Shown here piece by piece: positions 2,495 through 23,652 of a stretch of DNA of 32,000 nt (the stretch's first letter is position 1; each line of letters opens with the position of its first letter). The notes below the pieces were generated by a model that was not told the origin of the DNA, searched no databases, and was given only the letters and a program-made list of their open reading frames with translations. A program made the translations under genes and the position numbers. Source of the stretch: Nitrososphaera viennensis EN76 (GTDB lineage: Archaea > Thermoproteota > Nitrososphaeria > Nitrososphaerales > Nitrososphaeraceae); the NCBI RefSeq assembly GCF_000698785.1, contig NZ_CP007536.1, positions 570,001-602,000 of the forward strand, read 5' to 3'.

Positions 2495-2569
2495 GGGCCC
2501 ATAGTTCAGCTTGGACAGAATGGCTGCCTGCGGAGCAGTTGGTCGAGGGTTCGAGTCCCTCTGGGCCCG
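2495..2569 (+). tRNA. tRNA-Arg: tRNA-Arg (anticodon GCG)
   Basis: Hand-folded cloverleaf. Acceptor stem GGGCCCA/TGGGCCC, D stem GTTC/GAAT, anticodon stem GCTGC/GCAGT with loop CTGCGGA (GCG at 2530-2532). T stem GAGGG/CCCTC with loop TTCGAGT, discriminator G, no encoded CCA. Confidence 0.9.
2554..2569 (+). repeat. att-like core copy 1 (AGTCCCTCTGGGCCCG), the 3' end of tRNA-Arg
   Basis: A 16-mer running from the T-loop to the discriminator base, repeated at 6241 and 19456 in the same orientation. Confidence 0.8.
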
Positions 2570-3084
2570 CTTTCTCTCATGCGACAATAATTCACCGGGC
2601 GAAGAACCCGAAGACTCGCTTTCGCATTCGTTTTGTGCAGTAAACAGCATGCGGTCCTGAGCGTTTCGCATCCGGTTTTGCTCAATGGCGATTTGCTCGC
2701 CGATCTCGTTTTCGGTTATTGGCGCGCTTCACCGTAATGTGCCTCTCTTTTGTATAAAAGCCCTCGGGAAAAGAGCAATCATACAATTCTATTAGAGTCA
2801 TATACTAATAATCAAGGGTCGCGCTTTTAGGCACAGTCGTCAGTTCTGTAGTTTATCAGAATACCGGATTGCCATGCGGTCTCGGCGCCGCCAGCACAGC
2901 CATAGGCACGCTCGATCGATCAAACATAACAAATCCTGCACTTGACGACTTGAAACGTCAATTTCGCCCAGTCTGCCACCATCATCTAAAGCCAAAGCGA
3001 GCCGTATGCTATTACTTCTTCTGACGAATGATTGAACTCTGCGCGAGTCAGCATTATGAGGTGTCATGTGGCTAAGTTTGGGGC

Positions 3085-3200
3085 ATCACGAACAACTTGT
3101 TCGGGCATGAAGAAGAAGATGCTGGCTCGCGCACCTCTTATACCAAAACAGGTTTAGGATAGCCCCCACCCTGTCAGAAGGCACAAATCTGGCAGGGGCA
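3085..3200 (+). repeat. repeat module copy A (conserved leader, GTTTAGGATAGCC box, then a 9-bp hairpin)
   Basis: Shares TCAC..AA..TTGTT..CAT..ATGCTGGCTCGC..CAAAACAGGTTTAGRATAGCCCC with 3700-3800. Hairpin arms CCCTGTCAG (3169-3177) and CTGGCAGGG (3189-3197). Confidence 0.6.
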
Positions 3201-3339
3201 GTTACGTCATACGTTTAGGCTATCAGGCGATGCGATTAGACGGTGTATGCGCCTGACAGATTTAGTTATGCGTTAATAGTAAAAATGACTTTCTTTCTCT
3301 AAAGACATACTATGCGTCAAAACGGTACTCTTGTACAAT

Positions 3340-3558
3340 ATGACTGCGTACTGGTGCGACATGATAACACCCAGAGAGATCGATTGCCCTGGCTGTGGCA
3401 AGCCGAACGAATATCCACCAAGTTCATGTCGTAATTGCGGGCTGCCACGAGAAGAATTCGACAGAATTGGGCAGAACGAAGAGGTCTTTACTAAATTAGG
3501 CGAGAGCTTGGCCACAAAGTCGGCTATTCGGCCAGACCCTCTGGCTCAGACAGCATAA
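3340..3558 (+). CDS. small zinc-ribbon protein (hypothetical)
   Basis: CPGCGKPNEYPPSSCRNCG is a CxxC-x12-CxxC motif. ATG at 3340 lies inside the ORF opened by a TTG at 3331. Confidence 0.5.
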   Translation: MTAYWCDMITPREIDCPGCGKPNEYPPSSCRNCGLPREEFDRIGQNEEVFTKLGESLATKSAIRPDPLAQTA

Positions 3559-3699
3559 GCGACATGTATTCTTTTGCGTTTAGGCACGGCAGTTTATTTC
3601 GCCGCAGACTTGAATAATTGTGAACGGTACGTTATTACCGTCGCTTTCGTTTAATATTGCGCGGGCCAGCATACAAGCAATTGTGGTTGACTTTCGGTC

Positions 3700-3800
3700 G
3701 TCACAAGGTTGTTTGACATCATATGCTGGCTCGCATCAAGTCAAAACAGGTTTAGAATAGCCCCTACCCAAGTCGGCGGCTACTGTAGCTTGGTAGGGGC
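3700..3800 (+). repeat. repeat module copy B (same conserved box, 11-bp hairpin with one bulge)
   Basis: ATGCTGGCTCGC at 3723, CAAAACAGGTTTAGAATAGCCCC at 3742-3764. Hairpin arms CCCCTACCCAAG (3761-3772) and CTTGGTAGGGG (3789-3799). Confidence 0.6.
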
Positions 3801-4529
3801 GATTTGCACATACCCTCTAGACCGGCGCGTGCGACGTTGCAGCCATACCCGAGCAATATGTGCGTACTTCTACAATTGTCGAGTTATTATGAATTTCTAA
3901 TACTGTTGTTGTTATTGTTGTTGTTCAAAGCCCCACCTGTGCCGGTTATGCAAAAGCACAGGCGAAGGGCATGACATGGCTTTCACTGGTTTTCGGGGAT
4001 ATGCCTTTCGTCGACTTGCTCAGGCATGGTTGCTGATGTAGTGCCTGACGGTAGACAATCAAAGTAACATTGTCTTTAAGGCTTGCTTACCTGTGAAAAG
4101 TGTATATTGTAATCAGAAATTATGGTCTTTTACCGGTAATTAGCATTACTTTTGTATAATTTCAAATTAGGTCATAGACAATTCTTTTTTTACCCAAAGG
4201 CGACAGAGTTCGGCGATCTAAATTTTGACCCAGACATGATTTATTAAAGAAGTCAGAATTAGATAGCGCCCAAGTCGTGTGATTGTCAAAAAAGGAGGTC
4301 GGGGCTTTGGTACCGCCCCAATGGCCTCTGCCCAGTTTCTGAATCCTCTGTGCCTGCATACCCCTCTGGACCCGTACTTTGTTCTGAACAGTGTTCAAGA
4401 TGCTTCCGGCCGTTGTTTGGCCTGCGACTAGGATGATAAAGGCAGACTAGGTTAGCTTTGACTTTTGCTCTTGTTCGCAGTTGTTGCAGCGAGCGTGTTG
4501 ATTGACGGGGGGGGACGCGCGAATGGCAG

Positions 4530-5000
4530 TCAACTTTTTCCAAAGTCCCAAGTCGAAAAGTAACTTGGAGTAATTTCCAACAGTACAGACTTGCCACTTT
4601 TTACAGTTTCAAGGATGAATTTTGCAGTCGGATGATCTACACTGCCAAGATATTTTGTCATTATCTTTTCAACTATTGACAGGTTATCCTTTGGATTTTC
4701 AGATATCTTTGCTTTCCCTTTTCCTTTTACACCTTTTACAGGCATAACTTCGTCATCGATGCAGAAATAGACTGTGTTTCTTCTTCTCACATTAGCTATT
4801 TTCCTTGAATCGATGTTGGTATTAACATAGATCTTATCGCTCCGAGGTTCGTAGAAAAACCAGACTGGATGCACATTTGGGTCTCCAAGATCATCTACGG
4901 TTCCTAGCCGGCAATTTTGTTTGCTGGCGGAAAGGAAGTTGCGCAGTTCCTGCTCATCCATCGGTGCCCCCATGCCAGGAGTCGCATGGATTATTTTCAT
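4530..5000 (-). CDS. pyridoxamine 5'-phosphate oxidase-like (PPOX / split-barrel flavin or F420-binding) family protein
   Basis: 156 aa. VHPVWFFYE, VYFCIDD, KGVKGKGKAKI and LEITPSYFSTWDF are clearly paralogous to 15595-16047. Confidence 0.8.
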   Translation of the reverse strand: MKIIHATPGMGAPMDEQELRNFLSASKQNCRLGTVDDLGDPNVHPVWFFYEPRSDKIYVNTNIDSRKIANVRRRNTVYFCIDDEVMPVKGVKGKGKAKISENPKDNLSIVEKIMTKYLGSVDHPTAKFILETVKSGKSVLLEITPSYFSTWDFGKS

Positions 5001-5039
5001 TGCAGCATATCACCTAGAAACAAAAGTGGATGTGGTAAA

Positions 5040-6095
5040 TCACGGCTTTGCCTCGAATACGAGATTGAATGGTGTCTGCGTAGCTCTGCGGAACTTTGAG
5101 AATCCTGCTTCCATTACTATATCTCTGGTCCTAGCCTCGCCTGCTTGAGCGCCTAATGCGGGCCCATTCTCGCTTAACGAAGATGGAACGCAGACTACTG
5201 TCGAAACAGAATAGGACAGCCTTCCCAGCGGATTCAGGTTATCCTCTACCTTGTCGTTGGCAAAGGGCTCTACTATCATCCAAGAACCATTTTTCTTCAG
5301 GGTTTGCAGCACGTGCTTGGCAGCTCCGGCAGGGTTACCCATATCGTGGAAGCAATCAAAGAACGTCACCAAGTCATAATCGTCACCGGGATAGTCTGTA
5401 GAGCCTGCAACTTCAAATGTAATATTTTTCAAGCCCTCCTTTTCTGCTTCCTGTCTGGCCCATTCAATCGATGGCCTATGGAAGTCAAAGCCTACGATTT
5501 GTGAGCTAGGGTAAGCTTTAGCCATCAGTATGGTTGAGGCACCGTGACCGCATCCTACGTCGGCAACCTTTGCACCACCATTCTTGAGCTTTGCTTCAAC
5601 AGCGTCTAACGCTGGGATCCAGCTTGAAGTAAGATTTGCAATATAGTTTGGTTTGAAGAACCTCTCTGTGCTTTGAAACAGGTAATGGTGATGGTCTCCC
5701 CATCCAAGTCCTTTACCGGTTTTGAATGCCTCGATAATCTTTTCTTCATCTTTGAAGAGTCCTGTTATTAGCTGATAGCCGCCTGCAATGTACGCCGGAC
5801 TATTCTCGTCTATCAGGGCGACGGCATGTTCTTCCGGTAGCACGTACGTCCCGGAATTAGCGTTGTATGTAACAATCCCGCCGGCAGCCTGAGCGGCAAG
5901 CCATTCTCTCATTATTCTTGGATGAGTACCGGTCTTCCTTGCCAGCTCTTCTGGCGTCAACGGTCCTGCACCGGCCATGGCTTTGAATAAGCCGAGCCTA
6001 TCACCCGCAAAGGTGAGCAAGACGCCCAGAGCCGCGCCCCATTCAGTCGCAGACTTTTCGATGAACTTGTTCAGCTTGGTCTTATCAGCTACCAT
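5040..6095 (-). CDS. class I SAM-dependent methyltransferase with an N-terminal winged-helix/dimerisation domain
   Basis: VADVGCGHGASTILMAKAYP is the SAM-binding motif I, with DLVTFFDCFHDMGNP downstream. The ORF opens at a TTG at 6128, and the first ATG is at 6095. Confidence 0.8.
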   Translation of the reverse strand: MVADKTKLNKFIEKSATEWGAALGVLLTFAGDRLGLFKAMAGAGPLTPEELARKTGTHPRIMREWLAAQAAGGIVTYNANSGTYVLPEEHAVALIDENSPAYIAGGYQLITGLFKDEEKIIEAFKTGKGLGWGDHHHYLFQSTERFFKPNYIANLTSSWIPALDAVEAKLKNGGAKVADVGCGHGASTILMAKAYPSSQIVGFDFHRPSIEWARQEAEKEGLKNITFEVAGSTDYPGDDYDLVTFFDCFHDMGNPAGAAKHVLQTLKKNGSWMIVEPFANDKVEDNLNPLGRLSYSVSTVVCVPSSLSENGPALGAQAGEARTRDIVMEAGFSKFRRATQTPFNLVFEAKP

Positions 6096-6240
6096 TTGTA
6101 TCCAAACCTCCGGAAATTCATGGAACAAAAAATTCGTTTTTTGTATTTAAGCAATTTTCCAGATCGTATCCAGATTGGATGTTAGAACTTCTTGTCTATG
6201 AACTCATTCGGTAGGCCGAACCCTCATTTTTCGAGACTCT

Positions 6241-6256
6241 AGTCCCTCTGGGCCCG
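6241..6256 (+). repeat. att-like core copy 2 (16/16 identical to the tRNA-Arg 3' end)
   Basis: AGTCCCTCTGGGCCCG, preceded by TTCGAG plus a 6-nt insertion. It lies 8 nt from the stop of the last Ehr-operon gene. Confidence 0.8.
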
Positions 6257-6263
6257 TTAAACT

Positions 6264-7094
6264 TCATGTTGCCTGCTTTTGCGGAATCCTGTCGACTGCC
6301 AGCAATAGCCCGTACAGTACCGCCTCCGGCCTTGGGGGGCAGCCGGGTATGTACACGTCGACCGGCACTATTTTGTCAATCCCGCCCGTTGTCGCGTATG
6401 TGTCTCCGAATATCCCGCCGCTGCACCCGCACGCGCCGACTGCGACCACGACTTTTGGCTCAGGTGTCGCCTCGTACGTCCTTTTCAGCGCCACTTCCAT
6501 GTTCCTTGACGCGGGGCCGGTGACGAGGAGCACGTCGGCGTGGCGTGGCGACGCGACAAAGTGGATGCCAAACCTCTCGACGTCGTAGATGGGGTTGTTG
6601 AGGGCGGTTATCTCTATCTCGCAGCCGTTGCACGAGCCGGCGTCAACTTCCCGCACCGCAAGCGACCGGCCCAGCACCTTGCCTATCTTCTGCTTCAGTT
6701 CGTTGCCTATTTTTTCAAATGATTCATTCGCAGTCGCTGTTTCGCCAAGCGATTCCACGAGCTCTTCCTTTTTCTTTGCAGGGATGGCAAACGCGCTGTC
6801 AACCTTGAACAGGGCCGGCGCCGCCTCCTCGCACCTGCCGCACAGGAAGCACTTGCCCATGTCTAGCGTTATTTTCGCCGGACCTTTTCCGTCCGCCCAT
6901 ATCTTGATCGCCTTGGACGCGCAGATCTCTTCTGCTTCCATGTAACTTTCCGGGTAAGGTGGCACGTTTGGGACGAGCGAGACCCTGCCGCGATAGCCCG
7001 GCAAGCAATGCATGTCCGATATCGGATCCTTGACGGTCTCGATGCCGTTGCCCATGATATCTTTGCTGGCGTTTGCGCGCTTTATGCCTATCAT
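6264..7094 (-). CDS. fused ferredoxin-like (HycF/NuoI-type) + NuoB/HycG-type small subunit of a group-4-hydrogenase-like (Ehr) complex
   Basis: The N-terminal half has ...EEICASKAI... and GKCFLCGRCEEAAP. The C-terminal half has GSCNGCEIE, ASPRHADVLLVTG, GACGCSGG and IPGCPPRPEA, the NuoB-type 4Fe-4S ligands. Confidence 0.85.
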   Translation of the reverse strand: MIGIKRANASKDIMGNGIETVKDPISDMHCLPGYRGRVSLVPNVPPYPESYMEAEEICASKAIKIWADGKGPAKITLDMGKCFLCGRCEEAAPALFKVDSAFAIPAKKKEELVESLGETATANESFEKIGNELKQKIGKVLGRSLAVREVDAGSCNGCEIEITALNNPIYDVERFGIHFVASPRHADVLLVTGPASRNMEVALKRTYEATPEPKVVVAVGACGCSGGIFGDTYATTGGIDKIVPVDVYIPGCPPRPEAVLYGLLLAVDRIPQKQAT

Positions 7095-8770
7095 AGGTCA
7101 TTCCCCGAGTACGAAAGATCCAGGCTCTTGTTCACCAGCGGAAAGTTCGGCACGATGTCGCTCAGCACCGCCTGCTCTATCGCCGGCCAGTTGAGAAACG
7201 ACGCCGTCCTTACCTTGTAGCGGAAAAGAGAGTCGCGGTCGCTTCCCACCATCACCCAGTGCACCGTCTGGCCCCTGTGCGATTCCGCGCAGCCCAAGGC
7301 GTGGCTGTAAGGCTCTAGCCGCTCCCGCACTTCTGCAGCGACAAGCTCGCCGTCGTGCAGTTCATTCATGACCTGGTTTATCATGCTCGCAGAATTGAGC
7401 ACCTCTTCCACCCTCACCTCAAAGCGCGACAGCGCGTCGCCCTTCCTCTTTTGCATCTCCACCTCGTACTCCATCATGCGCTGCGGCGTGTCGTGGTGCG
7501 CGTCGAGCCGGACAGAATCGTACGCCGCGTACGGGTGGTCGCGCCGGGTGTCAATGTCGATGCCGGCGCACCTTGCGGCTACCCCGACGAGCCCGAGGTC
7601 TGTCGCGACCTGCCTTGATATTATCCCGGTGTTCCGCAGCCTGTCCATCACGGACGACTTGTTACGCAGCATCGATATCACGCGCTGGAAATCTTCAAGC
7701 ACGTGGTTTGTGGTTTTTACGATCACCTGCGCCTTGTCCTCCAGGTCGACGCCGACCCCGCCCACTCTGTTGACTCCGAACAGCAGCCGGCTCCCGGTCA
7801 CCTGCCCGTTCAGCTGCATCATCCTCTCCTTGAGTATGTTAAGGCGCGCCGCGCCGTAGGCAAACCCGACGTCGGTCGACATGCCTGCAAGCGTGCCAAG
7901 GTGGTTGTAAATCCTCTCAAGTTCCGCGCAGGCAGTCCTTGTCGCAAGCGCCTTTTTGGGCACCTTGGCCCTTGCTATCTTCTCCAGCGCCTGGCAGTAC
8001 GCCGTCGAGTTTGCAACTGCCTCGTCACCGGCTATCCGCTCGCTCAGGAGCAGGACCTGGTCAAGAGTCATGCCCTCGGCGAGCTTTTCCGTGCCCTTGT
8101 GCGTGTAGAAAAGGCGCGTCTCGAGGTTAACGATATTCTCGCCAAGGACGCTGAACCGGAAATGCCCCGGCTCTATTATGCCGGCGTGCACAGGGCCAAC
8201 AGGTATTTCGCATATCCCTTCGCCCTCCACCTTTGCAAACCGATACTGCGAGCCATTTGTCCTGCCGGCCTTTGTTCCAGCGGCAAAGTCCTTCCGGAGC
8301 GGATGTACGCCCGCTGGCCACTGCTCGTGCAGCACAAGCGGCCGGGTGTCCGGGTTTCCTTCAGGCACAAGTCCAAACATGTCTTTTATCTCCCTTTCAT
8401 ACAGCGCCGCCGGCGGGATGCGTGAAGAGATGCTTGGAAAGGACGGGGGCGTTCCGGGCTCCGCGTCGTCCTTTATCCCCGCGGTCGCCACGATAAACAC
8501 GTCCTCGCCGTTTTCCTTTGCAAAGACGTACCTGAGCACAAAGCCCCGGCCGGCCTGCCGCTCGTCGCTGCACACCACCGTCGCAAGCCTCGCTTTCAAG
8601 TCGTCGTTTATGCAGTAGCACGCGTCCGGGATGTCCTGCTTGCCTGCGAGAACGACATGGACCTCGTTGCCGTTGAGCACGTAAACAGACCTTGCCTTTC
8701 CGCCCATCCTGCGCAGGATTTCCGTCTTGCATTTTGCAGCGCTGGAATGCTCTACTCCTGCCGACATCAT
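7091..8770 (-). CDS. fused NuoC-NuoD / HycE-type large subunit lacking all four Ni-Fe cysteine ligands
   Basis: IPVGPVHAGIIEPGHFRF is the family signature. ERIAGDEAVANSTAY sits where hydrogenases have ERxCGxCxxxHSxAY. The C-terminus DLSYSGNDL sits where they have DPCxxCxxR. Confidence 0.9.
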   Translation of the reverse strand: MMSAGVEHSSAAKCKTEILRRMGGKARSVYVLNGNEVHVVLAGKQDIPDACYCINDDLKARLATVVCSDERQAGRGFVLRYVFAKENGEDVFIVATAGIKDDAEPGTPPSFPSISSRIPPAALYEREIKDMFGLVPEGNPDTRPLVLHEQWPAGVHPLRKDFAAGTKAGRTNGSQYRFAKVEGEGICEIPVGPVHAGIIEPGHFRFSVLGENIVNLETRLFYTHKGTEKLAEGMTLDQVLLLSERIAGDEAVANSTAYCQALEKIARAKVPKKALATRTACAELERIYNHLGTLAGMSTDVGFAYGAARLNILKERMMQLNGQVTGSRLLFGVNRVGGVGVDLEDKAQVIVKTTNHVLEDFQRVISMLRNKSSVMDRLRNTGIISRQVATDLGLVGVAARCAGIDIDTRRDHPYAAYDSVRLDAHHDTPQRMMEYEVEMQKRKGDALSRFEVRVEEVLNSASMINQVMNELHDGELVAAEVRERLEPYSHALGCAESHRGQTVHWVMVGSDRDSLFRYKVRTASFLNWPAIEQAVLSDIVPNFPLVNKSLDLSYSGNDL

Positions 8771-10297: not shown

Positions 10298-10298
10298 G

Positions 10299-10973: not shown

Positions 10974-10995
10974 TGCTACACACCTCCTCCTCTTT

Positions 10996-11940: not shown

Positions 11941-14006
11941 CAGGGCACCAGCCTTGCCAGCAGCAAAAGGAGTGCAAGAGCTATCATCACGTATAGCAGG
12001 TACGCGTTGACCTTGCCCGTCTGTATACGACGCACCTTGTCGAAAAACGCCACGGTCGCGCTGACCGTGTGCGAGTACAGCCCTTCTTCAAAGACGTCCC
12101 GAGTTTCAGACTCTACGCGCGCCGATTTGACGGCGTACGGGTTTGACGCAGAGTGCCGGTCCTTTGTGACGCTCATGCGCGGCCTGTAGAGCGCCCGAAA
12201 GACGGTGCGGATGGGCTGCGAAAGCGAGCCGGCCGTATACTGCATCCGCGCGTCCAGCGCGCCAAAGCCGCAGTCCCACGTGCCGTACAGCCGCCTCTTG
12301 GTACTGCGCGAGCCTGCGGCAAATGCAAAGCCAATGATTGCCGCCGCCACAGCGCCCATCATTATTGCTATAGCAGGCATGGACAAATTGCTCAACGCCT
12401 CGCCGGCGCGGTACGGCACGGCAAGCGCGTCAAACGGCGACACGCTGAACTGCTGCGGGTCCAGCTCAAACGAAGCGGCCATCATCCCGGTCGCTACAAA
12501 GGGCAGGACGCCAAAGACCACGCACAGCGCCGCGGCTATTCCCATGCCGGCTATCATGGTCTTGGGCGCTTCCTTTGCATGCGCGGCTGCTTCCGAGCGA
12601 GGGCGGGACAGGAAAGTGATGCCAAACATCTTGACAAAAGTGGCAAGCGCTATCCCTGCCGTGAGCGCAAACGCGATGCTCGCAAAGCTGATGGATATTT
12701 GCAGGGCGGTGTTTGGCACCTGGTACGAAGAAAGCAGGGCCTGCATAGTGAGCCACTCGCTCACAAAGCCGTTGAGGGGAGGCAGGCCCGAGATGGCTAT
12801 TGCGCCGACAAGGAAGAGGAGCGCCGTCTGAGGCATCTTTTTTGCCAGCCCGCCCAGCTGCTCCATGTCCTTTGTGTGCGTGCGAAAGAGTATAGAGCCG
12901 GCGCCCATGAAAAGCAGGCTCTTGAAGGCGGCATGGTTGAGCGAGTGGTACATTGCTGCCAAGAGCGCCACCGCCGCAAGGGCCTGCAGGCCAAACGACG
13001 CAAAGGTGACAGAAAGCCCGAGGCCGAGCACGACTATGCCGATGTTTTCTATGGTGCTGTAGGCAAGGGCGCGCTTGATGTCTTTTTCAATGGCGGCATA
13101 GAGCACGCCAATGAGCGCGGACACGGAACCGGCGACGACCATTAGCATGCCCCACCACGCCGAGTCTGGTGAGCCGGGCACCGCAAAGTCAAGCGTGGTG
13201 CGCACGAGGCCATAGATCGCGACCTTTACCATGACTGCGGACATTAGCGCGGACACGTTGCTTGGGGCCGACGGGTGCGCCTGTGGGAGCCAGACGTGCA
13301 TGGGCACGAGGCCGGCCTTTGTGCCAAAGCCGATAAACGCAAGTACGAAAGCGACGTCCTTTATGTACGGGGGCATGGGCGACGCAGGGTCCCTGAAAGA
13401 GTCGAATGACAGGCTGCCAGTATGGAAGTACATCGCAAGGAACGAGCCGGTGATAAACGCCGTGCCAAGGTGAGTCATCACGATGTAGGTCATGCCGGCC
13501 TTGATGTTGCCTTCATTGTCGTGCTCGTAGATGACAAGGAAGAACGACGCAAGCGACATCGCCTCCCAAAAGACCAGGAACGAAAACGCGCTGTCCGACG
13601 CGGTGACCAGGAACATGGAAAGGACAAAGAGGTTGAACAGAAAGCCAAGCGCCCTCTTGCTGCGCTTTTCAGAATATTCGCCTACATAGCCGATGGAGTA
13701 TATCGAGGCTGCGAAAGCGACCGGCCCAATGATTAGCATGAAAAACGCCGCCACGCCATCTACGTGAAACTCGATGCTCAGTGCAGGAACGGGGGCGGCA
13801 AACAGCGGGGAGATGTCAAGCGGCAAGCCAGAAATGGCCACAGAAGCAGACAGCGCGACTATCAGGACCGACCCAAGGGCTGGCGGGGCAAAAGACAGGA
13901 TAGCAGATTTCCTGCCATCCCGGAAGGCAAGCGGCAAGAGCGCGCCGGCTACGAACGAAAGCACGGCCGCTTGAAATAGAGTTGAGTAACCATCTCCAAA
14001 AACCAT
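11940..14006 (-). CDS. antiporter-like membrane subunit (HyfB/HycC / NuoL family)
   Basis: 688-aa polytopic protein with GFGTKAGLVPMHVWLPQAHPSAP. First gene of the operon; its stop overlaps the next start by 1 nt. Confidence 0.85.
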   Translation of the reverse strand: MVFGDGYSTLFQAAVLSFVAGALLPLAFRDGRKSAILSFAPPALGSVLIVALSASVAISGLPLDISPLFAAPVPALSIEFHVDGVAAFFMLIIGPVAFAASIYSIGYVGEYSEKRSKRALGFLFNLFVLSMFLVTASDSAFSFLVFWEAMSLASFFLVIYEHDNEGNIKAGMTYIVMTHLGTAFITGSFLAMYFHTGSLSFDSFRDPASPMPPYIKDVAFVLAFIGFGTKAGLVPMHVWLPQAHPSAPSNVSALMSAVMVKVAIYGLVRTTLDFAVPGSPDSAWWGMLMVVAGSVSALIGVLYAAIEKDIKRALAYSTIENIGIVVLGLGLSVTFASFGLQALAAVALLAAMYHSLNHAAFKSLLFMGAGSILFRTHTKDMEQLGGLAKKMPQTALLFLVGAIAISGLPPLNGFVSEWLTMQALLSSYQVPNTALQISISFASIAFALTAGIALATFVKMFGITFLSRPRSEAAAHAKEAPKTMIAGMGIAAALCVVFGVLPFVATGMMAASFELDPQQFSVSPFDALAVPYRAGEALSNLSMPAIAIMMGAVAAAIIGFAFAAGSRSTKRRLYGTWDCGFGALDARMQYTAGSLSQPIRTVFRALYRPRMSVTKDRHSASNPYAVKSARVESETRDVFEEGLYSHTVSATVAFFDKVRRIQTGKVNAYLLYVMIALALLLLLARLVP

Positions 14007-14124
14007 TCGTTATGACACTTTTTTCCCCGAATAGATGCACTCGACTGCCTTACGTTACGGCAACCGCAGTTTTTGGCAGTCGGCTTTTAAAGATTAGGTC
14101 ACAAATTATGCAATAATTCAGAAT

Positions 14125-14139
14125 TCCGAGATTTTCGGA
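14125..14139. promoter_or_regulatory. inverted repeat TCCGA-N5-TCGGA in the divergent promoter region (candidate operator)
   Basis: Lies between the Ehr operon start (14006) and the regulator start (14182). CTTTAAAA boxes are at 14085-14092 (minus sense) and 14149-14156 (plus sense). Confidence 0.3.
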
Positions 14140-14181
14140 TTTTCAAAAACTTTAAAATGCCGCACACATCAGGTCTCCGGC

Positions 14182-14784
14182 ATGAAGCCCCGGAACATCA
14201 AGACCTACCTGACGCACTTTCCAGTCAAGTCGTACCTCGAAGCCGACATACTTTCAAAGGAGAGCACGTGGCGGATAATGGACTACATCAGGCAGGCAGG
14301 GGCCCAGGGCATCACCGCCGAGGACATCATCGAAAAAGAAAAGATCCCCGCAAGCGTCGTCTATTCTACACTGAAAGAGCTCTATCGCCTGGAGTTTGTC
14401 TTCCTCTACCCGAGGGAAAAAAAGGCCAAAGGCGAGAGGAGCAAGAGGTTCGTGTGCGAAAGGAGCACGTGGGGGAAGTACGGCATCGACGAGGAGTTTG
14501 ACACGCTCCTGAAGGTGAGCGGCCTGCTTGAAAGCATCACGGAAGAAATGCGCGTGCCGGTGATGAAGGCGTTCAGGCACATGTATGAGGAATTCGGCGC
14601 CAGAAAAGAGCTGCAGAAATTCCTCCCCACCAAGCAGACCAACATCTGCCCGAATTGCCAGAGGAGCCACGAGGCGATGGAGTTTTTTTACGCCACGCTT
14701 CTTCGCAGCATCGACCTGATGATAACAGAGTCGGACGAGTTCAAGAAGTTCCTCGTAGAAATGAAGTACGCAAGTGACGATTAG
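14182..14784 (+). CDS. winged-helix transcriptional regulator (ArsR/TrmB-like N-terminus, CxxC-containing C-terminal domain)
   Basis: WRIMDYIRQAGAQGITAEDIIEKEKIPASVVYSTLKELYRLEFV is an HTH plus wing. CPNCQRSHE lies near the C-terminus. Divergent from the Ehr operon. Confidence 0.65.
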   Translation: MKPRNIKTYLTHFPVKSYLEADILSKESTWRIMDYIRQAGAQGITAEDIIEKEKIPASVVYSTLKELYRLEFVFLYPREKKAKGERSKRFVCERSTWGKYGIDEEFDTLLKVSGLLESITEEMRVPVMKAFRHMYEEFGARKELQKFLPTKQTNICPNCQRSHEAMEFFYATLLRSIDLMITESDEFKKFLVEMKYASDD

Positions 14785-15235
14785 CAGATTTCACCTCAAG
14801 CAGTTAATACGCATCAGAACGCTTTTTCCAGAAAAAAAGATGCAGCTTTCAGCCGCCCCGATGGCTTCTGCCTCCTCACAGGGCTCGCATCCAATGTTGG
14901 ACCGTGTTCCTCTGTGCCCGCTAAAATCTTGCCAGTTGATTGCTCGTTTTCGCATGCATTCTTTTTAGCTCTTGTCGTCGGACTTGCCATAATTGTGTCG
15001 ATATAGCCCGCCAAGAAAGGCGCTTACTCGTGTGACCAGCATCGCCCAAACGGCGGCGTATCGTAACAAGAAAACAAGATGCAGAGCGCCTTAATTCCAT
15101 GATAGGCAACACACCGTTACACTAAAGATGACCAAGAAGTCTTAATTCAAGGCGAAAATATACTGCGTTGCACAATATACTCATGTCAAAGATATCTGTG
15201 GCATAACTTTATCTAAAACATTAGCATATCATGAC

Positions 15236-15508
15236 ATGTTGCAGTTCAGGCGCATGCTTGCACTGAGCATGACCATCATTGCGTCTGCCGCAGTCATCAT
15301 TAATACAGGTCCGGCTTATGGCCATGGCTGCCAGGCGCAGGGCGGCTGCTGCACCGTAGGCGATGCGTGTGTTGAAATCAGCGCCAACAGCCCCATCTAC
15401 ATGATGTTTGCAGTAGTAGGCGTGGGCGCCGTGATGATGCTCGCATTTTACGGCAGGCCAGAACAGAGAAGAAACCGGCTTGGCGCTATTTTCAATATCT
15501 TCATTTAG
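15236..15508 (+). CDS. small membrane protein with an exofacial Cys cluster (hypothetical)
   Basis: 90 aa. Signal/anchor LALSMTIIASAAVII, then GHGCQAQGGCCTVGDAC, then TM helix IYMMFAVVGVGAVMMLAF followed by a basic tail. TATA-like CTTTATCTAAAA lies about 20 nt upstream. Confidence 0.5.
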   Translation: MLQFRRMLALSMTIIASAAVIINTGPAYGHGCQAQGGCCTVGDACVEISANSPIYMMFAVVGVGAVMMLAFYGRPEQRRNRLGAIFNIFI

Positions 15509-15594
15509 AATGAAAAGAAACTTCGCTTATCCTGACTGTCAACTTTGCCGATCTGCAGGGCTCCCGTGCCAGCCTCAAGAGAGGAGCGGTTTCC

Positions 15595-16047
15595 CTAGTA
15601 TTTCCAAGTCGCCATGTAAAGCGGCGCGATCTCGATGACGCTGTAATTCTTGGCATTTTCAATCAGCATCTTTGCTTCTTGGCTATCTGGAGATCCCAGG
15701 TACCTCATTATGTGTCGGGATATCACCTTTTTCGCATACTCGGGATCGTCTATGACTCGGGCCTTCCCCTTGCCGCGGACCCCATAAGGCGGGCCCTTGT
15801 CGGCCACGTCCACAAGGAAGTAAACGTCAGGATTCTTTTTGAGCGACCGGGCCTTGGCGCCGCCAGCGTAGGTGGTAAGAAAGAATTTCCCATCCTCGTA
15901 GTAGTGCCAGACAGGGTGGACCAGAGGCGTGCCGTCGCGCGCGTCAATCATGGCTATCCGCAGGATGCTGGGCTGATTCAGGAGCTCGGTGACCTCTCCT
16001 TCCTGCATCGGCTTTGCATAGTTGTCGGCAAGCCGAAACTCCATCAT
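15595..16047 (-). CDS. pyridoxamine 5'-phosphate oxidase-like (PPOX / split-barrel) family protein
   Basis: 150 aa. VHPVWHYYE, VYFLVDV, YGVRGKGKARV and IEIAPLYMATWKY make it a paralog of 4530-5000. Confidence 0.8.
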   Translation of the reverse strand: MMEFRLADNYAKPMQEGEVTELLNQPSILRIAMIDARDGTPLVHPVWHYYEDGKFFLTTYAGGAKARSLKKNPDVYFLVDVADKGPPYGVRGKGKARVIDDPEYAKKVISRHIMRYLGSPDSQEAKMLIENAKNYSVIEIAPLYMATWKY

Positions 16048-16302
16048 ATATCATTGGCGGCCGAGCCTAAAAGAGTATTGCAGGTTTATCGCCGCCACTG
16101 CATTCTTGTGAAATAGAGGCAAGCGCCAAATCACTTGTGCAATATTCGCAGGCATTTAAGAAATGCACTATGGTGCCTTGCTACTGTTACCAAAGTGAGA
16201 GTTTATGGCGACAATCGTCCGGCAAGCAGTCCAATAGGATGTACGTGCTTTACAGCCAGATAGCCAATCCAAATTAATCTCGTCGCCGCTTCCATGCCAC
16301 CA

Positions 16303-17127
16303 TTAACGCGAAGTCTTGCGCCGGAAAATCCAGGTCGCTATTGGCACAGAGACAACGATGATGCCAATGCACCAGGCAAATGCCAGCCAGCCGGAATCTC
16401 CGACGGGCGTGCCGACAAGCCAGGCGCGCATTGCCTCGATGACATGGGTGAGAGGCTGGTTTTCGGCAAAAAGCCGCAACGCCTCGGGCATGGTATCAGT
16501 CGGCACAAAGGCGCTGCTGACAAACGTTAACGGAAAGATGATGATAAAGCCCGTCCACTGCGCCGCCTCCATGCTCTTGACAAGCAGCCCCATGATGGCT
16601 GACAGCCACGAAAAGGCAAGCGAAAAGACAAGAATGAGGCCAAACACCAGCAGCCACTCTACAGGGCCGGCTACTGGCTGGAAGCCCAGTGGAAAGCTGA
16701 CGGCAAGCACAAGCAGGGCCGAGATTGTATTGCGCAGCAGGTCTGCCCCGACGTGGCCGGCCAGGAGGGACGAACTTGCCATCGGGAGCGAGCGGAACCT
16801 GTCTACAATGCCCCGTTGCAGGTCAATAGCCAGATTTAGGGTCGTATAGTTTGAGCCAAAGGCCAGCATCTGCACCATGATGCCGGCCACAAGAAAGTTC
16901 ACGTAACTTATGCCGCCGGTGTCTATCGCGCCGCCAAAGACGAAGCTGAACAAGAGGAAGAACATGATCGGGAACAGCGCTACTGACAGGAGCTGGTCGA
17001 GGTTCCGGGTGATATGTTTGACGCTGCGTTTGGCCATCACCCACGAATCGCTGAGCACCCAAAAGATCTGGGAGTGCTTTTCCGGCTGTACATCGTCGGT
17101 GGCGAAAGAGGAAGCTTCTCTGGTCAT
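16303..17127 (-). CDS. ABC-2 type transporter permease
   Basis: 274 aa, 6 predicted TM helices. Its start overlaps the ATPase stop by 4 nt. Architecture is typical of DrrB/ABC-2 permeases. Confidence 0.85.
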   Translation of the reverse strand: MTREASSFATDDVQPEKHSQIFWVLSDSWVMAKRSVKHITRNLDQLLSVALFPIMFFLLFSFVFGGAIDTGGISYVNFLVAGIMVQMLAFGSNYTTLNLAIDLQRGIVDRFRSLPMASSSLLAGHVGADLLRNTISALLVLAVSFPLGFQPVAGPVEWLLVFGLILVFSLAFSWLSAIMGLLVKSMEAAQWTGFIIIFPLTFVSSAFVPTDTMPEALRLFAENQPLTHVIEAMRAWLVGTPVGDSGWLAFAWCIGIIVVSVPIATWIFRRKTSR

Positions 17128-18128
17128 GTCCTGGCCTCCTGCTGCGGAGGATTCTTTTCTGCCTCTCCGTCCGGCTGCTGCCCTGTCGTGTGCCCTGTGA
17201 GCGTGAGAAAGACGTCATCAAGCGTCGGGCGGTGGAACGACACGTTTTCAACTTCGACGCCTGCTTCATCCAGGCGGCTGAGGACTTGCTTCAGGTGATG
17301 CACGCCGCCTTCGGTTGCCAGGCTGAGCGTCCGCCTTTTGCCATCCGAATGGATGCCGTCGCCATCATTATCAAAGACCTTCGTGGCTGCCTCGAAGCTG
17401 CTCGTGCCAGCAATTGTTATTTCCAGCCGCTCGGAGCCTACTCGCTGTTTCAGTTCGTCAGAGGTGCCCTCCGCGATTATCTTGCCTCCGTCGATGACGA
17501 CGATCTTGTCAGCCAAGCGGTCAGCCTCGTCCATGTCCTGAGTGGTGAGGAGTATGGTCGTGCCGGCGGCGACCAGCTGCTTGATGATGTCCCACATTAT
17601 AAGCCGGCTCCGCGGATCAAGGCCGGTGGTGGGCTCGTCGAGAAAAATAACCGGCGGGGACGCTATCAAGCTGACAGCAAGGTCCAGCCGGCGGCGCATG
17701 CCGCCGGAATAAGTCTTTACCGCACGGGCGGAAGCCTCCACCAGGTCAAACAGCTCTAGCAACTCCTGCGAGCGCCGCTTGATGTCCGGGTAGCTGAGGC
17801 GGTAGAGCCGGCCTATCATGTGCAGGTTTTCCCTGCCTGTCAGGTACTCGTCCACGGCCGCGTACTGGCCCGTCAAGCCGATGAGGCGGTGCACCTTGTC
17901 GGCATCCTTTACCACGTCAAGGCCGTTGATCTGCGCCTGGCCGCCATCAGGCAAAAGCAGCGTGCTGAGGATCCGGATGGTGGTGGTTTTCCCGGCGCCG
18001 TTTGGCCCAAGCAATGCCAGAACGGTACCCCGCTTGACGCAAAGATCAATGCCATCAAGTACGGTGAGCTTTTTGAACGACTTTCTCAGCCCCTTTACGA
18101 CAATAACGTTATCCTCTGACATGCACAT
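17124..18128 (-). CDS. ABC transporter ATP-binding protein (DrrA / ABC-2 exporter type)
   Basis: Walker A GPNGAGKTT, Q-loop, signature YSGGMRRRL, Walker B VIFLDEPTTGLD, H-loop TTQDMDEA. Confidence 0.9.
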   Translation of the reverse strand: MCMSEDNVIVVKGLRKSFKKLTVLDGIDLCVKRGTVLALLGPNGAGKTTTIRILSTLLLPDGGQAQINGLDVVKDADKVHRLIGLTGQYAAVDEYLTGRENLHMIGRLYRLSYPDIKRRSQELLELFDLVEASARAVKTYSGGMRRRLDLAVSLIASPPVIFLDEPTTGLDPRSRLIMWDIIKQLVAAGTTILLTTQDMDEADRLADKIVVIDGGKIIAEGTSDELKQRVGSERLEITIAGTSSFEAATKVFDNDGDGIHSDGKRRTLSLATEGGVHHLKQVLSRLDEAGVEVENVSFHRPTLDDVFLTLTGHTTGQQPDGEAEKNPPQQEART

Positions 18129-18445
18129 CTTTTAGTTGCTTTTCTGGAATATATCCTCGCAGGTATCATGCTGTAAATTACCCAACACGAAATTTCTTAA
18201 AAAATTTAATCAGTATTCATGCATCGTTATGTAAAAGAATGTCCGTTCATTTCCGAGCATGGATCCGTAAAGGAGATGAATCGATGTTCAGCGATAATTG
18301 AAACGATATGTGTTGGTTTCAGATTTCAAGGGAGTTCTGGTCCTTTCGATCCATGCCTTATCTAATAGTCAGTTGTTAGGATGGAGTTTGGATTTCGTAA
18401 CATATCGACAACCAAAATCTTAAATCATTTCTCACCTCTCTCTAT

Positions 18446-19324
18446 ATGATGGCGTCTGAAGGGCAGGATATCATCAAGATTGTTGATGTCAATGGAACGC
18501 AGTTACATTACATCAAGCTTGGTAAAAACCACACCCAATCGGTTGTTTTCACTCCTGCGGCATTCAGTGATTACCGCGTTTGGCAATTTCAAATAGAACC
18601 TTTTTCACGCAACTATAGGGTCGTTTCCTATAGCAGGAGACATGCATATCCAAACAAAATAGAAGACGGTTTTCATTTTACTGAAGACAATGACGCAATT
18701 CGCCAGTATGCTTCTGATCTGGCAGAACTAATACGAAAGTTGGACTTGGCACCAACGCACTTGGTCGGTCATTCCGACGGCGCCTTTGTGACGCTGTATT
18801 GTGCATACACAAATCCAGAGCTGGTAAAATCTCTTGTACTTTTAGAACCTGCGGCCTTGCCACTGCTTGCAACAAGCCAAGTGGAAGAGGATCGGAAGAT
18901 GTTTCAAGAGTTCTGGGAAAATGCGATCAAGCCTGCAGGGGAAGCCCTTCAGCGTGGCGAATATGAAAATGGAGTCAGGATATTTATGGATGGGGCCATG
19001 GCCAAGGGCTTTTTTGACAAGCTGCCTCCTCCAGTCAAGCAGTCAATGATAGACAATGCAAAGGCCTTTCTTAAACAGGCAGAAAACCCCATGCCAAAGG
19101 AATTTCGCTTGCAAGAGCTAAAGAGGATATCATCTCTGCCAACACTCTTTGTAAAAGGCGAGTATAGCCCAAAGTTTCTCCATCGTATAGTCGATATTCT
19201 TGCTCCCCATCTGCCAAAATCAGAACAGGTTACAATTCCAGGAGTCACACATGATCTTGGTCGAACGACTAAAGCAGAGATATTCAATTCAAAAGTCATG
19301 GAATTTCTCTCCAGACACGCATAG
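18446..19324 (+). CDS. alpha/beta-fold hydrolase
   Basis: 292 aa. Nucleophile elbow LVGHSDGAF (GxSxG) and a C-terminal IPGVTHDL (catalytic His region). The gene is AT-rich. Confidence 0.85.
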   Translation: MMASEGQDIIKIVDVNGTQLHYIKLGKNHTQSVVFTPAAFSDYRVWQFQIEPFSRNYRVVSYSRRHAYPNKIEDGFHFTEDNDAIRQYASDLAELIRKLDLAPTHLVGHSDGAFVTLYCAYTNPELVKSLVLLEPAALPLLATSQVEEDRKMFQEFWENAIKPAGEALQRGEYENGVRIFMDGAMAKGFFDKLPPPVKQSMIDNAKAFLKQAENPMPKEFRLQELKRISSLPTLFVKGEYSPKFLHRIVDILAPHLPKSEQVTIPGVTHDLGRTTKAEIFNSKVMEFLSRHA

Positions 19325-19455
19325 TACAGCTAGTAGTAGCGAGTGACAGTCGCGTTCCTGAAACTAACGGCAAGGTGAACAAGCCTTATTCTGCCTGAGA
19401 TGTTGCATTAGAGGCCGGAATTCTCGACATTTGAATCCCATTTTTTCTGTAATGT

Positions 19456-19471
19456 AGTCCCTTTGGGCCCG
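19456..19471 (+). repeat. att-like core copy 3 (15/16 match to the tRNA-Arg 3' end)
   Basis: AGTCCCTTTGGGCCCG. It starts at the same tRNA position as copy 2, and its flanks (AGGCCGGAA ... CCCATTTTTT ... GTT) resemble those of copy 2. Confidence 0.7.
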
Positions 19472-19556
19472 TTCACTTTTGATTCAATCTATCAAAAAGC
19501 CGGACAAAGCTACTAGAACCTGGCAAAGCGCTCCTTAAATAACATCCAGCCGAGAG

Positions 19557-20354: not shown

Positions 20355-20428
20355 TGACGATATAAAAAAATCATAATAGTAATCAGGAGCGGAGGTATAT
20401 GCGCGCGTACCACTAAATCCTGCTTTTG

Positions 20429-21202: not shown

Positions 21203-21355
21203 GCAAAAAGTATGCGCGAGTCATTAATAATCTTGATCTTGCAAAAATATAGAACTTTAATATCTGCCATAGCCTACTGGTATCAGGAAACGCCCTGCTT
21301 GTTTTTTGTGAGGAGGAGGAGGGCATGGTGTTCTTATCATCATTATTGTCTGGCG

Positions 21356-22042: not shown

Positions 22043-22125
22043 GTTGTTGTTATTATTATTGAGCCTGCATCATCACCAGGCTTGACGCATTCGTAGTGGT
22101 AGTAGCAGCATCTCTACATTTTTTG

Positions 22126-22574: not shown

Positions 22575-22578
22575 CTGA

Positions 22579-23626: not shown

Positions 23627-23652
23627 ACACATGCACACACGATGCTCTCACC

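What the first reader, a model, noticed from the sequence alone, without database searches (positions are those of the whole stretch)
2495..19471. Three direct copies of the tRNA-Arg 3' end delimit two tandem islands, and the Ehr operon lies in the distal one
The last 16 nt of tRNA-Arg (AGTCCCTCTGGGCCCG, 2554-2569) recur in the same orientation at 6241-6256 (16/16) and 19456-19471 (15/16). Both extra copies begin at exactly the same tRNA position (T-loop AGT). Both are followed by GTT and share further flank similarity (AGGCCGAA ... CCC(TC)ATTTTT upstream). A chance 16-mer match in 32 kb is very unlikely. This is the classic footprint of site-specific integration into a tRNA 3' end, repeated twice. 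The proximal, exact repeat would mark the younger insertion (2570-6256). The distal, mismatched repeat would mark the older one (6257-19471), which carries the Ehr operon, its regulator, PPOX, the ABC-2 exporter and the hydrolase. No integrase or excisionase is recognisable, so the elements appear immobilised or decayed.
Basis: partly seen in the sequence, partly recalled or inferred. Interest (0 to 1): 0.7.

Follow-up and report, generated by a model that had tools for sequence, protein, structure and literature searches.

The report
tRNA-Arg integration array carrying Ehr

Summary
tRNA-Arg(GCG) lies at 2495-2570, and its last 16 nt recur on the same strand at 6241-6256 (16/16) and 19456-19471 (15/16).

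There are two more copies with a 12-nt core, at 4363-4374 and 14909-14920. Both are confirmed because their flanks match junctions in other Nitrososphaera genomes. The locus is therefore an array of at least four blocks, not two islands:
- M1, 2570-4374
- M2, 4375-6256
- M3, 6257-14920
- M4, 14921-19471

M3 is exactly the Ehr operon plus its 200-aa neighbour. A related species carries the same block with the same two end repeats. There, its right repeat abuts sequence that follows tRNA-Arg directly in a third genome, giving an occupied-versus-empty site comparison.

The window holds no integrase. Relatives do have tyrosine-recombinase genes, or fragments of them, next to this same tRNA, and six of them have extra repeat copies.

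The Ehr genes are not foreign. Homologues occur throughout Nitrososphaerales, in core-gene neighbourhoods without repeats.

The expected empty site (tRNA followed by FkbM) was not found. Conserved backbone resumes only at about 23-30 kb.

tRNA-Arg(GCG) is already a published thaumarchaeal integration target, including a tandem pair. Verdict: a new member of a known kind, of moderate interest.

The parts
2495..2570 (+). Intact tRNA-Arg(GCG), the attachment target. Core copy O1 is 2554-2569 (12-nt core 2558-2569).
   Evidence: ARAGORN; Rfam tRNA 62.8 bits. The synteny ScpA - 167-aa gene - tRNA-Arg is conserved in 38 Nitrososphaera loci.
2570..4374 (.). Block M1: 46.6% G+C and no ORF of 80 aa or more apart from 3273-3515 (-, 80 aa, not examined) and the start of 4286-4597 (-), which runs across O2. 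It holds a 72-aa zinc-ribbon ORF (3340-3558, +) and two copies of an ~85-nt motif. It ends with a type-B arm (about 4297-4362) and core O2 (4363-4374, CCTCTGGACCCG).
   Evidence: ORF list; G+C; no Pfam domain in any frame. The first ~110 nt are shared with the closest relative L011 at 77%. The arm matches metagenome junction L097 at 92% over 37 nt.
4363..4374 (+). Core copy O2 (11/12). It is followed by 'tactttgttctgaa', the sequence that follows the tRNA itself in L017 and L037 and follows distal copies in L015 and L025.
   Evidence: blastn: 4362-4396 matches L017 11366-11400 at 91%. 28 nt match L015 copy 2 at 96%, E 3e-7, with L037 and L025 also matching. Sequences shown.
4375..6256 (.). Block M2 (1.9 kb, 46.7% G+C): PNPOx-like gene 4530-5000 (-) and HTH_65 + SAM-methyltransferase 5040-6128 (-). 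It ends with a type-A arm (6188-6240) and core O3 (6241-6256).
   Evidence: Pfam. Both ends match the ends of a 1.9-kb block in L017 (11379-13309) that carries different genes.
6241..6256 (+). Core copy O3 (16/16; 18/19 from 6238). It lies 7 nt from the stop codon of the last Ehr gene.
   Evidence: Also present in L093/L094 at the same place relative to Ehr.
6257..14920 (.). Block M3 (8.7 kb, 58.3% G+C): the Ehr operon 6264-14006 (-), with NuoB-like + Fe-S, fused NuoC/D-like, two antiporter-like subunits, and NuoK- and NuoH-like subunits; the divergent 200-aa gene 14182-14784 (+); a type-B arm (about 14831-14908); and core O4 (14909-14920).
   Evidence: Pfam and NCBIfam. The large subunit lacks both Ni-Fe cysteine motifs. 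L093 is colinear with 6188-14921 at 84% identity and has core copies at both ends, and beyond its right copy lies the flank that follows tRNA-Arg in L013.
14909..14920 (+). Core copy O4 (CCTCTGTGCCCG, 11/12) with a conserved ~75-nt upstream arm.
   Evidence: 14851-14923 matches L068 2769-2840 at 84% over 73 nt, E 7e-13. Also matches L093 and L097. Alignment.
14921..19471 (.). Block M4 (4.6 kb, mosaic G+C): 90-aa ORF, PNPOx-like gene 15595-16047 (-), ABC-2 permease and ATPase 16303-18128 (-), alpha/beta hydrolase 18446-19324 (+), a loose type-A arm (19412-19455), and core O5 (19456-19471).
   Evidence: Pfam. O5 is a 15/16 match. The block is not validated as a unit in relatives: hydrolase homologues at 73-78% sit in other contexts and the homology is confined to the gene.
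19472..23101 (.). Further lineage-specific DNA with no repeat at its right end: FkbM methyltransferase, ODP metallo-hydrolase, a 228-aa ORF, and an ORF-poor stretch.
   Evidence: No homologue appears in any relative's tRNA-Arg to tRNA-Pro interval. No core copy lies beyond 19471.
23102..31317 (.). Right-hand backbone, interrupted: 174-aa gene, solute-binding protein 23653-24519, 140-aa gene 26146-26568, and 30372-31317. In relatives the homologues lie 1-8 kb from tRNA-Arg and next to tRNA-Pro(CGG).
   Evidence: blastn and tblastn to L013, L015, L017, L048 and L091. tRNA-Pro positions.

Best explanation
The 3' end of tRNA-Arg(GCG), from the T-loop to the discriminator base, is an attachment site for tyrosine-recombinase integrative elements in the genus Nitrososphaera. 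Each integration duplicates 12-19 nt of the tRNA end, rebuilds an intact tRNA, and leaves the other copy at the far end of the insert. Reuse of the site has built a head-to-tail array. In this N. viennensis window the array has five core copies and four blocks (M1-M4). All four blocks have lost, or never had, an integrase.

The blocks end in two kinds of conserved arm. Type A has a 16-19 nt core that starts at AGT, preceded by CGAACCC(T/G)CATTTTT. Type B has a 12-nt core, CCTCTGGGCCCG, preceded by a ~75-nt arm. Blocks with other cargo in other species end in the same arms.

Block M3 is the Ehr operon with its adjacent 200-aa gene. This is a gene set native to Nitrososphaerales that became an att-bounded block in the N. 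viennensis clade.

Shown here: the repeats, their flank homologies, the shared M3 boundaries, the occupied/empty comparison, and integrases at this tRNA in relatives. Inferred: that recombinases of those types made these particular junctions, the order of insertion, and how Ehr was captured.
For: - Repeat statistics.
- Flank homology validates O2, O3 and O4.
- M3 boundaries are shared with L093/L094 (window 6188-14921, 84% identity). L093's right repeat is followed by the sequence that follows tRNA-Arg in L013: 36 nt at 94% and 51 nt at 82%.
- The tRNA-downstream interval is hypervariable. It measures 2.6-7.9 kb between tRNA-Arg and tRNA-Pro in L034, L026, L017 and L015, and more than 29 kb in the window.
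- Six of the 18 relatives with at least 1 kb of downstream sequence have extra same-strand core copies: L015 and L068 have three copies each, and L017, L025, L045 and L048 have two each.
- A 411-aa integrase starts 72 nt after the tRNA in L055 (PHROG integrase E 4e-14; Pfam Phage_integrase E 4e-4).
- A related 405-aa gene abuts the tRNA in L016, and its C-terminal fragment abuts core copy 2 in L068.
- Published precedent: thaumarchaeal att sites have a median length of 17 bp; 57% of integrations are in tRNA 3' ends; tRNA-Arg(GCG) is used by the tandem pair NitDev-E2/E3 and by NitNCS1-E1 (PMC6563490).
Against: - No integrase or excisionase remnant is detectable in the window, so recombinase involvement at these junctions is inferred.
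- Two close relatives of M3, L091 (90% DNA identity) and L098 (82%), lose homology exactly at the stop codon of the 200-aa gene and lack the type-B arm and core. The right end of M3 is therefore not universal.
- The short trailer just after the tRNA in the window (ctttctctcatgcg) resembles the trailer found after the tRNA in L013 and after M3 in L093. A strict 'oldest flank is most distal' reading does not predict this unless elements carry trailer-like sequence in their attP.
- M4 and O5 have no cross-species support.
- The stretch 19472-23101 is also variable but has no repeat at its right end.
Confidence: 0.8

Rival explanations
1. One reading: exactly two tandem islands (2570-6256, younger; 6257-19471, older), each a decayed integrative element, with Ehr, its regulator, PNPOx, ABC-2 and the hydrolase forming one foreign cargo set.
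For: The three best copies. Low G+C in 2570-6256. No integrase.
Against: Two further validated core copies split both 'islands'. L093 carries 6188-14921 alone, ending exactly at 14921. Ehr homologues follow the lineage, and the operon's G+C is high everywhere it occurs. Hydrolase homologues occur alone in other contexts.
Confidence: 0.08
2. The blocks are not dead remnants. They are a still-mobile, integrase-less cassette system, comparable to cis-mobilisable elements or integron-like arrays. On this view the conserved type-A and type-B arms are recombination sites, recognised in trans by an integrase encoded elsewhere in the genome or on a co-resident element, and blocks such as Ehr move between array positions and between species.
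For: Blocks with entirely different cargo share the same ends: M2 versus the L017 block; M1, M3, the L068 block and L097 for type B. M3 sits in different array contexts in the window and in L093, with identical boundaries. The blocks fit tightly around their genes (7 nt from O3 to the Ehr stop codon). The Ehr + 200-aa set is found in a different neighbourhood in nearly every relative examined.
Against: No helper integrase was identified in the window. No circular or empty-junction evidence was found. All 23 same-species contigs read show one arrangement. The arms show no attC-like folded structure (the covariation term is unfavourable). Shared ends can equally be what deletion leaves behind in integrase-bearing elements of one family.
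Confidence: 0.25
3. The copies are not integration footprints. They are fragments left by local duplication or rearrangement of the tRNA gene, or a short regulatory or terminator motif that happens to resemble the tRNA end.
For: No recombinase in the window. The cores are short (12-16 nt).
Against: All copies are on one strand, all lie downstream of the tRNA, and none extends further into the tRNA. The arm upstream of the type-B core is not tRNA-derived: its alignment scores are no better than those of shuffled sequences. The same pattern occurs, with integrase genes, in relatives. The motif is absent elsewhere in 1 Mb of related DNA.
Confidence: 0.04

Closest known systems
Thaumarchaeal integrated elements at tRNA-Arg(GCG): the tandem pair NitDev-E2/NitDev-E3 (Ca. 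Nitrosotalea devanaterra, att TCCCCCCGGGCCCGC) and NitNCS1-E1 (att CCCCGGGCCCG); Krupovic et al. 2019, PMC6563490, Table S2
   Same: Same target gene and the same part of it (T-stem 3' strand plus acceptor 3' strand). Similar short att length (11-15 bp there, 12-19 bp here). Head-to-tail reuse of one site. The phylum matches.
   Different: Those elements are 4-62 kb and were found through their integrase genes; cryptic integrated elements are defined by the integrase. Here none of the four blocks has one. The published catalogue lists no element at this locus in N. viennensis EN76. Its auxiliary cargo (multicopper oxidases, AmoC, UspA) does not include a complex-I-like operon.
Cis-mobilisable elements (CIMEs) and site-specific accretion next to ICEs of Streptococcus thermophilus (ICESt1/ICESt3 family).
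   Same: Blocks bounded by att sites that lack recombination and transfer genes, lying in tandem at one attachment site that integrase-bearing relatives also use.
   Different: Those are bacterial, integrate at the 3' end of a protein-coding gene, and have been shown experimentally to be mobilised by a helper ICE. No helper and no excision have been shown here.
SSV-type ('suicidal') archaeal integrases, which split their own gene on integration (PMC7253208, PMC8371274; titles and abstracts seen)
   Same: Archaeal, tRNA-targeting, and able to leave immobilised inserts flanked by tRNA-derived repeats.
   Different: No int(N) or int(C) halves flank any block. In relatives the integrase ORF lies wholly outside the core copy (L055 and L016), as in the non-partitioning type.
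Integron cassette arrays
   Same: A serial array of gene blocks, each ending in a conserved recombination-site-like arm, downstream of one fixed site.
   Different: No IntI gene. The arms show no attC-type folded structure. The blocks hold up to seven genes and include their own divergent regulator-like gene.

Membership tests
tRNA-targeting integrative element array (thaumarchaeal iMGE/CIE sense) | Direct repeats identical to the 3' part of a tRNA gene bound each insert, and the tRNA stays intact | tested here: met
   Five same-strand copies. The tRNA is intact.
tRNA-targeting integrative element array (thaumarchaeal iMGE/CIE sense) | Related genomes show the same site both occupied and empty | tested here: met
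   M3: in L093 its right repeat abuts the flank that follows the tRNA directly in L013. O2: its downstream flank follows the tRNA itself in L017 and L037. Not met for M4 or O5.
tRNA-targeting integrative element array (thaumarchaeal iMGE/CIE sense) | The element encodes an integrase (tyrosine recombinase) | tested here: not met
   Nothing in the window (tblastn best E 0.55; six-frame Pfam empty; Pfam on all called ORFs). Present at the same tRNA in relatives L055, L016 and L068.
tRNA-targeting integrative element array (thaumarchaeal iMGE/CIE sense) | att length in the thaumarchaeal range (8-26 bp, median 17) | tested here: met
   Cores of 12 and 16-19 nt, against the range in PMC6563490.
tRNA-targeting integrative element array (thaumarchaeal iMGE/CIE sense) | Excision to a circle and restoration of the empty site | not testable with these tools
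   This needs read-level data or PCR. All same-species contigs seen share one arrangement.
Cis-mobilisable (integrase-less, att-bounded) elements | att sites at both ends, and no recombination or transfer genes inside | tested here: met
   M1-M4 boundaries and gene content.
Cis-mobilisable (integrase-less, att-bounded) elements | Ends related to those of an integrase-bearing element that uses the same site | tested here: inconclusive
   The second L068 block starts with an L016-type integrase fragment and ends with a CCGAACCC-containing arm like type A. No intact element with both an integrase and a type-A or type-B arm was recovered.
Cis-mobilisable (integrase-less, att-bounded) elements | Mobilisation by a helper element | not testable with these tools
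   Only indirect evidence: M3 lies in two different array contexts.
Integron | An IntI integrase next to the array, and attC sites with paired R''/R' boxes that fold | tested here: not met
   No integrase. The consensus fold of five type-B arms has an unfavourable covariation term and only 2 of 17 pairs show compensatory changes.
SSV-type partitioning integrase provirus | N- and C-terminal halves of one integrase gene flank the insert, with the core inside the ORF | tested here: not met
   No integrase-like translation around any core copy.
Ehr (energy-converting hydrogenase-related) complex | Group-4-hydrogenase/complex-I-like subunit set (NuoB, C, D, H, K and L/M-like) | tested here: met
   Pfam and NCBIfam.
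Ehr (energy-converting hydrogenase-related) complex | The large subunit lacks the CxxC Ni-Fe ligands | tested here: met
   ERIAGDEAVANS stands in place of the N-terminal motif, and the C-terminus reads DLSYSGNDL. This agrees with the AOA review PMC10432482.

The most novel reading that the evidence does not exclude
Nitrososphaera has an integrase-less cassette system anchored on tRNA-Arg(GCG). Gene blocks of 0.6-9 kb each end in one of two conserved arms and are shuffled in trans by an integrase encoded elsewhere. This system can capture and move native chromosomal operons such as Ehr, which would explain the patchy and context-free distribution of Ehr among ammonia-oxidising archaea.
Probability: 0.25. 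Interest if true: 0.65.

Novelty: new member of a known kind. Interest (0 to 1): 0.4.

Why it matters
N. viennensis is the model soil ammonia oxidiser, and the published catalogue of its integrated elements was seeded on integrase genes, so it does not include this locus. The array shows that integrase-less, att-bounded blocks can make up about 17 kb next to one tRNA. It also shows that a whole bioenergetic operon of unknown function (Ehr), present in only some ammonia oxidisers, sits in such a block with precise ends shared between species. That offers a concrete route for gain, loss and relocation of Ehr. It also gives defined junction sequences that can be searched for in read data or tested by PCR. 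Beyond that, the phenomenon (tandem reuse of a tRNA 3' end) is ordinary.

Tried and rejected
- **Integrase remnants in the window.** tblastn with the L016 and L055 integrases and six-frame Pfam of 2571-4530 found nothing.
- **Type-B arm as a pseudo-tRNA.** Local alignment to the tRNA body scores no better than shuffled sequences. Rejected.
- **Type-B arm as a structured RNA or attC-like hairpin.** RNAalifold on five copies shows no covariation support. Rejected.
- **A coding reading of the arms.** The reading frames differ between copies. Rejected.
- **Rfam.** At gathering threshold, and at E of 1 or less on 2400-6400, only the tRNA is found.
- **G+C as evidence that Ehr was imported.** Ehr is about 10 points above its flanks even in a core-gene context (L092), so G+C is uninformative.
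- **Cross-species validation of M4 through the hydrolase.** Homologues lie in unrelated contexts.
- **Searches for intact elements bearing the arms.** Two IMG/VR pattern scans found nothing. The one metagenome scan gave a single 1.6-kb junction contig.
- **Look-ups that gave no usable DNA.** The N. evergladensis Ehr protein is not on record, and P0009 returned gene calls only.
- **Accession search.** The accession CP103305 appears in no paper held in the library.

Full report
**Source.** Two proteins of the window are identical to Nitrososphaera viennensis proteins (AIC14915.1/UVS69857.1 and AIC14926.1/UVS69868.1). The window maps to CP103305.1 at roughly 562.6-594.6 kb.

**Observation.** One intact tRNA-Arg(GCG) lies at 2495-2570. 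Its last 16 nt recur on the same strand at 6241-6256 (exact; 18/19 from 6238) and at 19456-19471 (15/16). No shuffle out of 100 gives three matches.

**Gene content.**
- ScpA-like gene 82-825 (-), SNase-like gene 909-1778 (-), 167-aa gene 1949-2452 (+), then the tRNA.
- 2570-4286 has almost no ORFs.
- PNPOx-like gene 4530-5000 (-) and HTH_65 + methyltransferase 5040-6128 (-).
- A six-gene complex-I/group-4-hydrogenase-like operon, 6264-14006 (-).
- A divergent 200-aa gene, 14182-14784 (+).
- PNPOx-like gene 15595-16047 (-), an ABC-2 transporter 16303-18128 (-), and an alpha/beta hydrolase 18446-19324 (+).
- FkbM methyltransferase 19557-20354 (+), an ODP hydrolase, and further genes.

The large subunit of the operon lacks both Ni-Fe cysteine motifs. 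This fits the Ehr label used for ammonia oxidisers (PMC10432482).

**Relatives.** A genome scan with the ScpA-like protein returned 80 Nitrososphaera(ceae) loci, 1.0 Mb in total. ScpA - 167-aa gene - tRNA-Arg(GCG) is conserved in 38 of them. None of the window genes between 2570 and 23100 appears downstream of their tRNA. Where the sequence reaches far enough, tRNA-Arg is followed by 2.6-7.9 kb of unrelated DNA and then a tRNA-Pro(CGG) (L034, L026, L017, L015). Just before that tRNA-Pro lie homologues of window 30372-31317. Homologues of 23102-24519 and 26146-26568 also lie on that side in L013, L048 and L091. The tRNA-Arg to tRNA-Pro interval is therefore a hypervariable hot spot, and in N. 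viennensis it has grown to more than 29 kb. The predicted empty site, tRNA followed directly by FkbM, does not exist in this sample.

**More copies.**
- Six of the 18 relatives with at least 1 kb of downstream sequence carry extra same-strand copies of the tRNA end: L015 and L068 have three copies each, and L017, L025, L045 and L048 have two each. Many distal copies keep only the last 11-12 nt.
- The 12-mer CCTCTGGGCCCG at one mismatch or fewer gives five hits in the window, all + strand, at 2558, 4363, 6245, 14909 and 19460, against 0.16 expected.
- The two new copies are validated by their flanks. 4362-4396 matches the tRNA end plus the native downstream sequence of L017 (91%), and it also matches the distal copies of L015 and L025.
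- 14851-14923 matches the flank and core of L068 copy 2 (84% over 73 nt, E 7e-13), the right end of L093, and a metagenome junction, L097.

**End types.**
- Type A has a 16-19 nt core starting at AGT, preceded by CGAACCC(T/G)CATTTTT. It is found at window 6188-6256, L017 copy 2 and the L093/L094 left copy, and more loosely at window 19412-19471.
- Type B has a 12-nt core preceded by a ~75-nt arm (GGGGCTTTGGTAGCCGCCCCAATGGCTTCTGCC...GGGACCGGGTT). It is found at window 4297-4374, window 14831-14920, L068, the L093 right copy and L097.
- The type-B arm is neither tRNA-derived nor a supported RNA structure.
- M2 (4375-6256) and a 1.9-kb block in L017 share both ends but none of their genes.

**The Ehr block.**
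- L093 and L094 come from two samples; their large subunit is 85% identical to the window's. They are colinear with window 6188-14921 at 84% DNA identity and have a core copy at each end.
- Homology stops exactly at 14921.
- The next 130 nt of L093 match the sequence that follows tRNA-Arg directly in L013: 94% over 36 nt and 82% over 51 nt.
- So M3 (6257-14920: the Ehr operon, the 200-aa gene, the type-B arm and the core) is a discrete att-bounded unit, occupied in L093 and the window and empty in L013.
- Its neighbours differ between the window and L093 on both sides, apart from ~50-70 nt of type-A arm on the left.

**Is Ehr foreign?** No.
- The large subunit has homologues at 92, 85, 81, 78 and 75% (Ca. 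N. evergladensis), falling to 61-63% in Nitrosotenuis and Nitrosotalea.
- At 73-78% identity the same seven-gene set lies among core genes and without any core copy. In L092 it lies between PEPCK/PALP and 2-oxoacid:ferredoxin oxidoreductase/aconitase/PdxST. In L096 it is next to a thermosome gene; L096 comes from the same MAG as L068. In P0009's contig it is next to LigT and the CCA-adding enzyme.
- Ehr G+C is about 10 points above its flanks in L092 as well (55.9% against 46-47%), so composition says nothing about recent import.
- In L091 (90% DNA identity) and L098 (82%), homology to the window ends at the stop codon of the 200-aa gene, with no arm or core. In L091 the next genes are the right-hand backbone and tRNA-Pro.
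- The Ehr + 200-aa set thus has a different neighbourhood in nearly every relative. It is att-bounded only in the window and L093/L094.

**Integrases.**
- The window has none.
- In L055 a 411-aa integrase starts 72 nt after the tRNA (PHROG integrase E 4e-14; Pfam Phage_integrase E 4e-4).
- In L016 a 405-aa protein ends 113 nt from the tRNA. It is 21% identical to the L055 integrase over 400 aa (E 1e-7) and has an H..R...GH...Y C-terminus.
- Its C-terminal 171 aa survive in L068 immediately after core copy 2, in a block whose far end has a CCGAACCC-type arm.

**Comparison with the literature.** Krupovic et al. 2019 (PMC6563490) report short thaumarchaeal att sites (median 17 bp), with 57% of integrations in tRNA 3' ends, and note that arrays form by reuse of a site. 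Their Table S2 lists tRNA-Arg(GCG) as the target of the tandem pair NitDev-E2/E3 and of NitNCS1-E1. For N. viennensis EN76 it lists no element at tRNA-Arg(GCG). Their cryptic integrated elements are defined by the integrase, so an integrase-less array would have been missed. No hydrogenase-like or NADH-dehydrogenase-like cargo is mentioned.

**Verdict.** The finding is real and its core idea is right. The anatomy needs revising to five core copies, four blocks and two end types. The Ehr operon forms its own block and is lineage-native rather than foreign. The variable region does not stop at 19471. This is a new example of a known kind. The less ordinary possibility, that these are trans-mobilised cassettes able to relocate chromosomal operons, is not excluded and can be tested with read data.

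Noticed in passing
window 909-1778 (-): A 289-aa staphylococcal-nuclease-like gene sits between the ScpA-like gene and the 167-aa gene. None of the 38 relatives with this synteny has it, so it is a separate lineage-specific insertion upstream of the tRNA.
   Followed up: no
window 3122-3205 and 3725-3810; ORF 3340-3558 (+): Two copies of an ~85-nt motif (GCTGGCTCGC...AAAACAGGTTTAGRATAGCCCCYACCC, then a hairpin whose stems differ but stay complementary) flank a 72-aa zinc-ribbon ORF inside block M1. There is no Rfam match and no copy in the 96 loci fetched by that point.
   Followed up: partly
window 31318-32000; L015, L017, L026, L034, L091: In relatives a tRNA-Pro(CGG) lies about 0.4 kb beyond the homologue of window 30372-31317. 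The window has no tRNA-Pro up to 32000, so something has also changed at the right edge of the hot spot.
   Followed up: partly
window 26573-30281: Four genes are missing from L091, where the homologues of 26205-26562 and 30372-31317 lie only 226 nt apart. The four are a 74-aa ORF, a 114-aa ORF, a Thr/Pro-rich 417-aa protein and a 546-aa cupredoxin-like protein. This is another indel inside the backbone.
   Followed up: no
window 25411-25920 (-): A 169-aa ORF made largely of Asp/Asn/His runs (DDDDNHDDK repeats) with an N-terminal signal-like segment. It is of unknown nature.
   Followed up: no
L016 6072-6110 and L012 5691-5730 (window orientation): Directly after tRNA-Arg, and in L016 before the integrase gene, lies a second T-arm-like fragment (GGGTTCGAGTCCCG / GGGTTCGAGCCCCG). 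It does not belong to tRNA-Arg and may be the relic of another tRNA's 3' end carried by that element family.
   Followed up: no
L098 (reverse complement), last 105 nt; compare window 19433-19460: After the stop codon of the 200-aa gene, L098 reads TTTTTTCTAGTATGTAGTCC. This resembles the arm plus the first 5 nt of core O5 in the window (ATTTTTTCTGTAATGTAGTCC), but the rest of the core is absent. Unexplained.
   Followed up: no
window 4530-5000 and 15595-16047; L034 13916-14422; L025 7319-7768: PNPOx-like or deazaflavin-type small oxidoreductase genes recur as cargo in this hot spot, in different blocks and different species.
   Followed up: no
just upstream of the window (EN76 coordinates 552849-561758): The published element NitVie-E2 (8.9 kb, intragenic att TGTTGTTTAA) would lie within about 1 kb of the window start if EN76 and CP103305.1 coordinates are comparable. 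This part of the chromosome may be a broader island-rich zone.
   Followed up: no
relatives' contigs L011, L012, L022, L031, L039, L041, L054; Ehr contigs L091, L093, L098: Many metagenome contigs end at or just after tRNA-Arg, or at the ends of the Ehr block. This is consistent with assembly breaks at repeated or strain-variable junctions.
   Followed up: no
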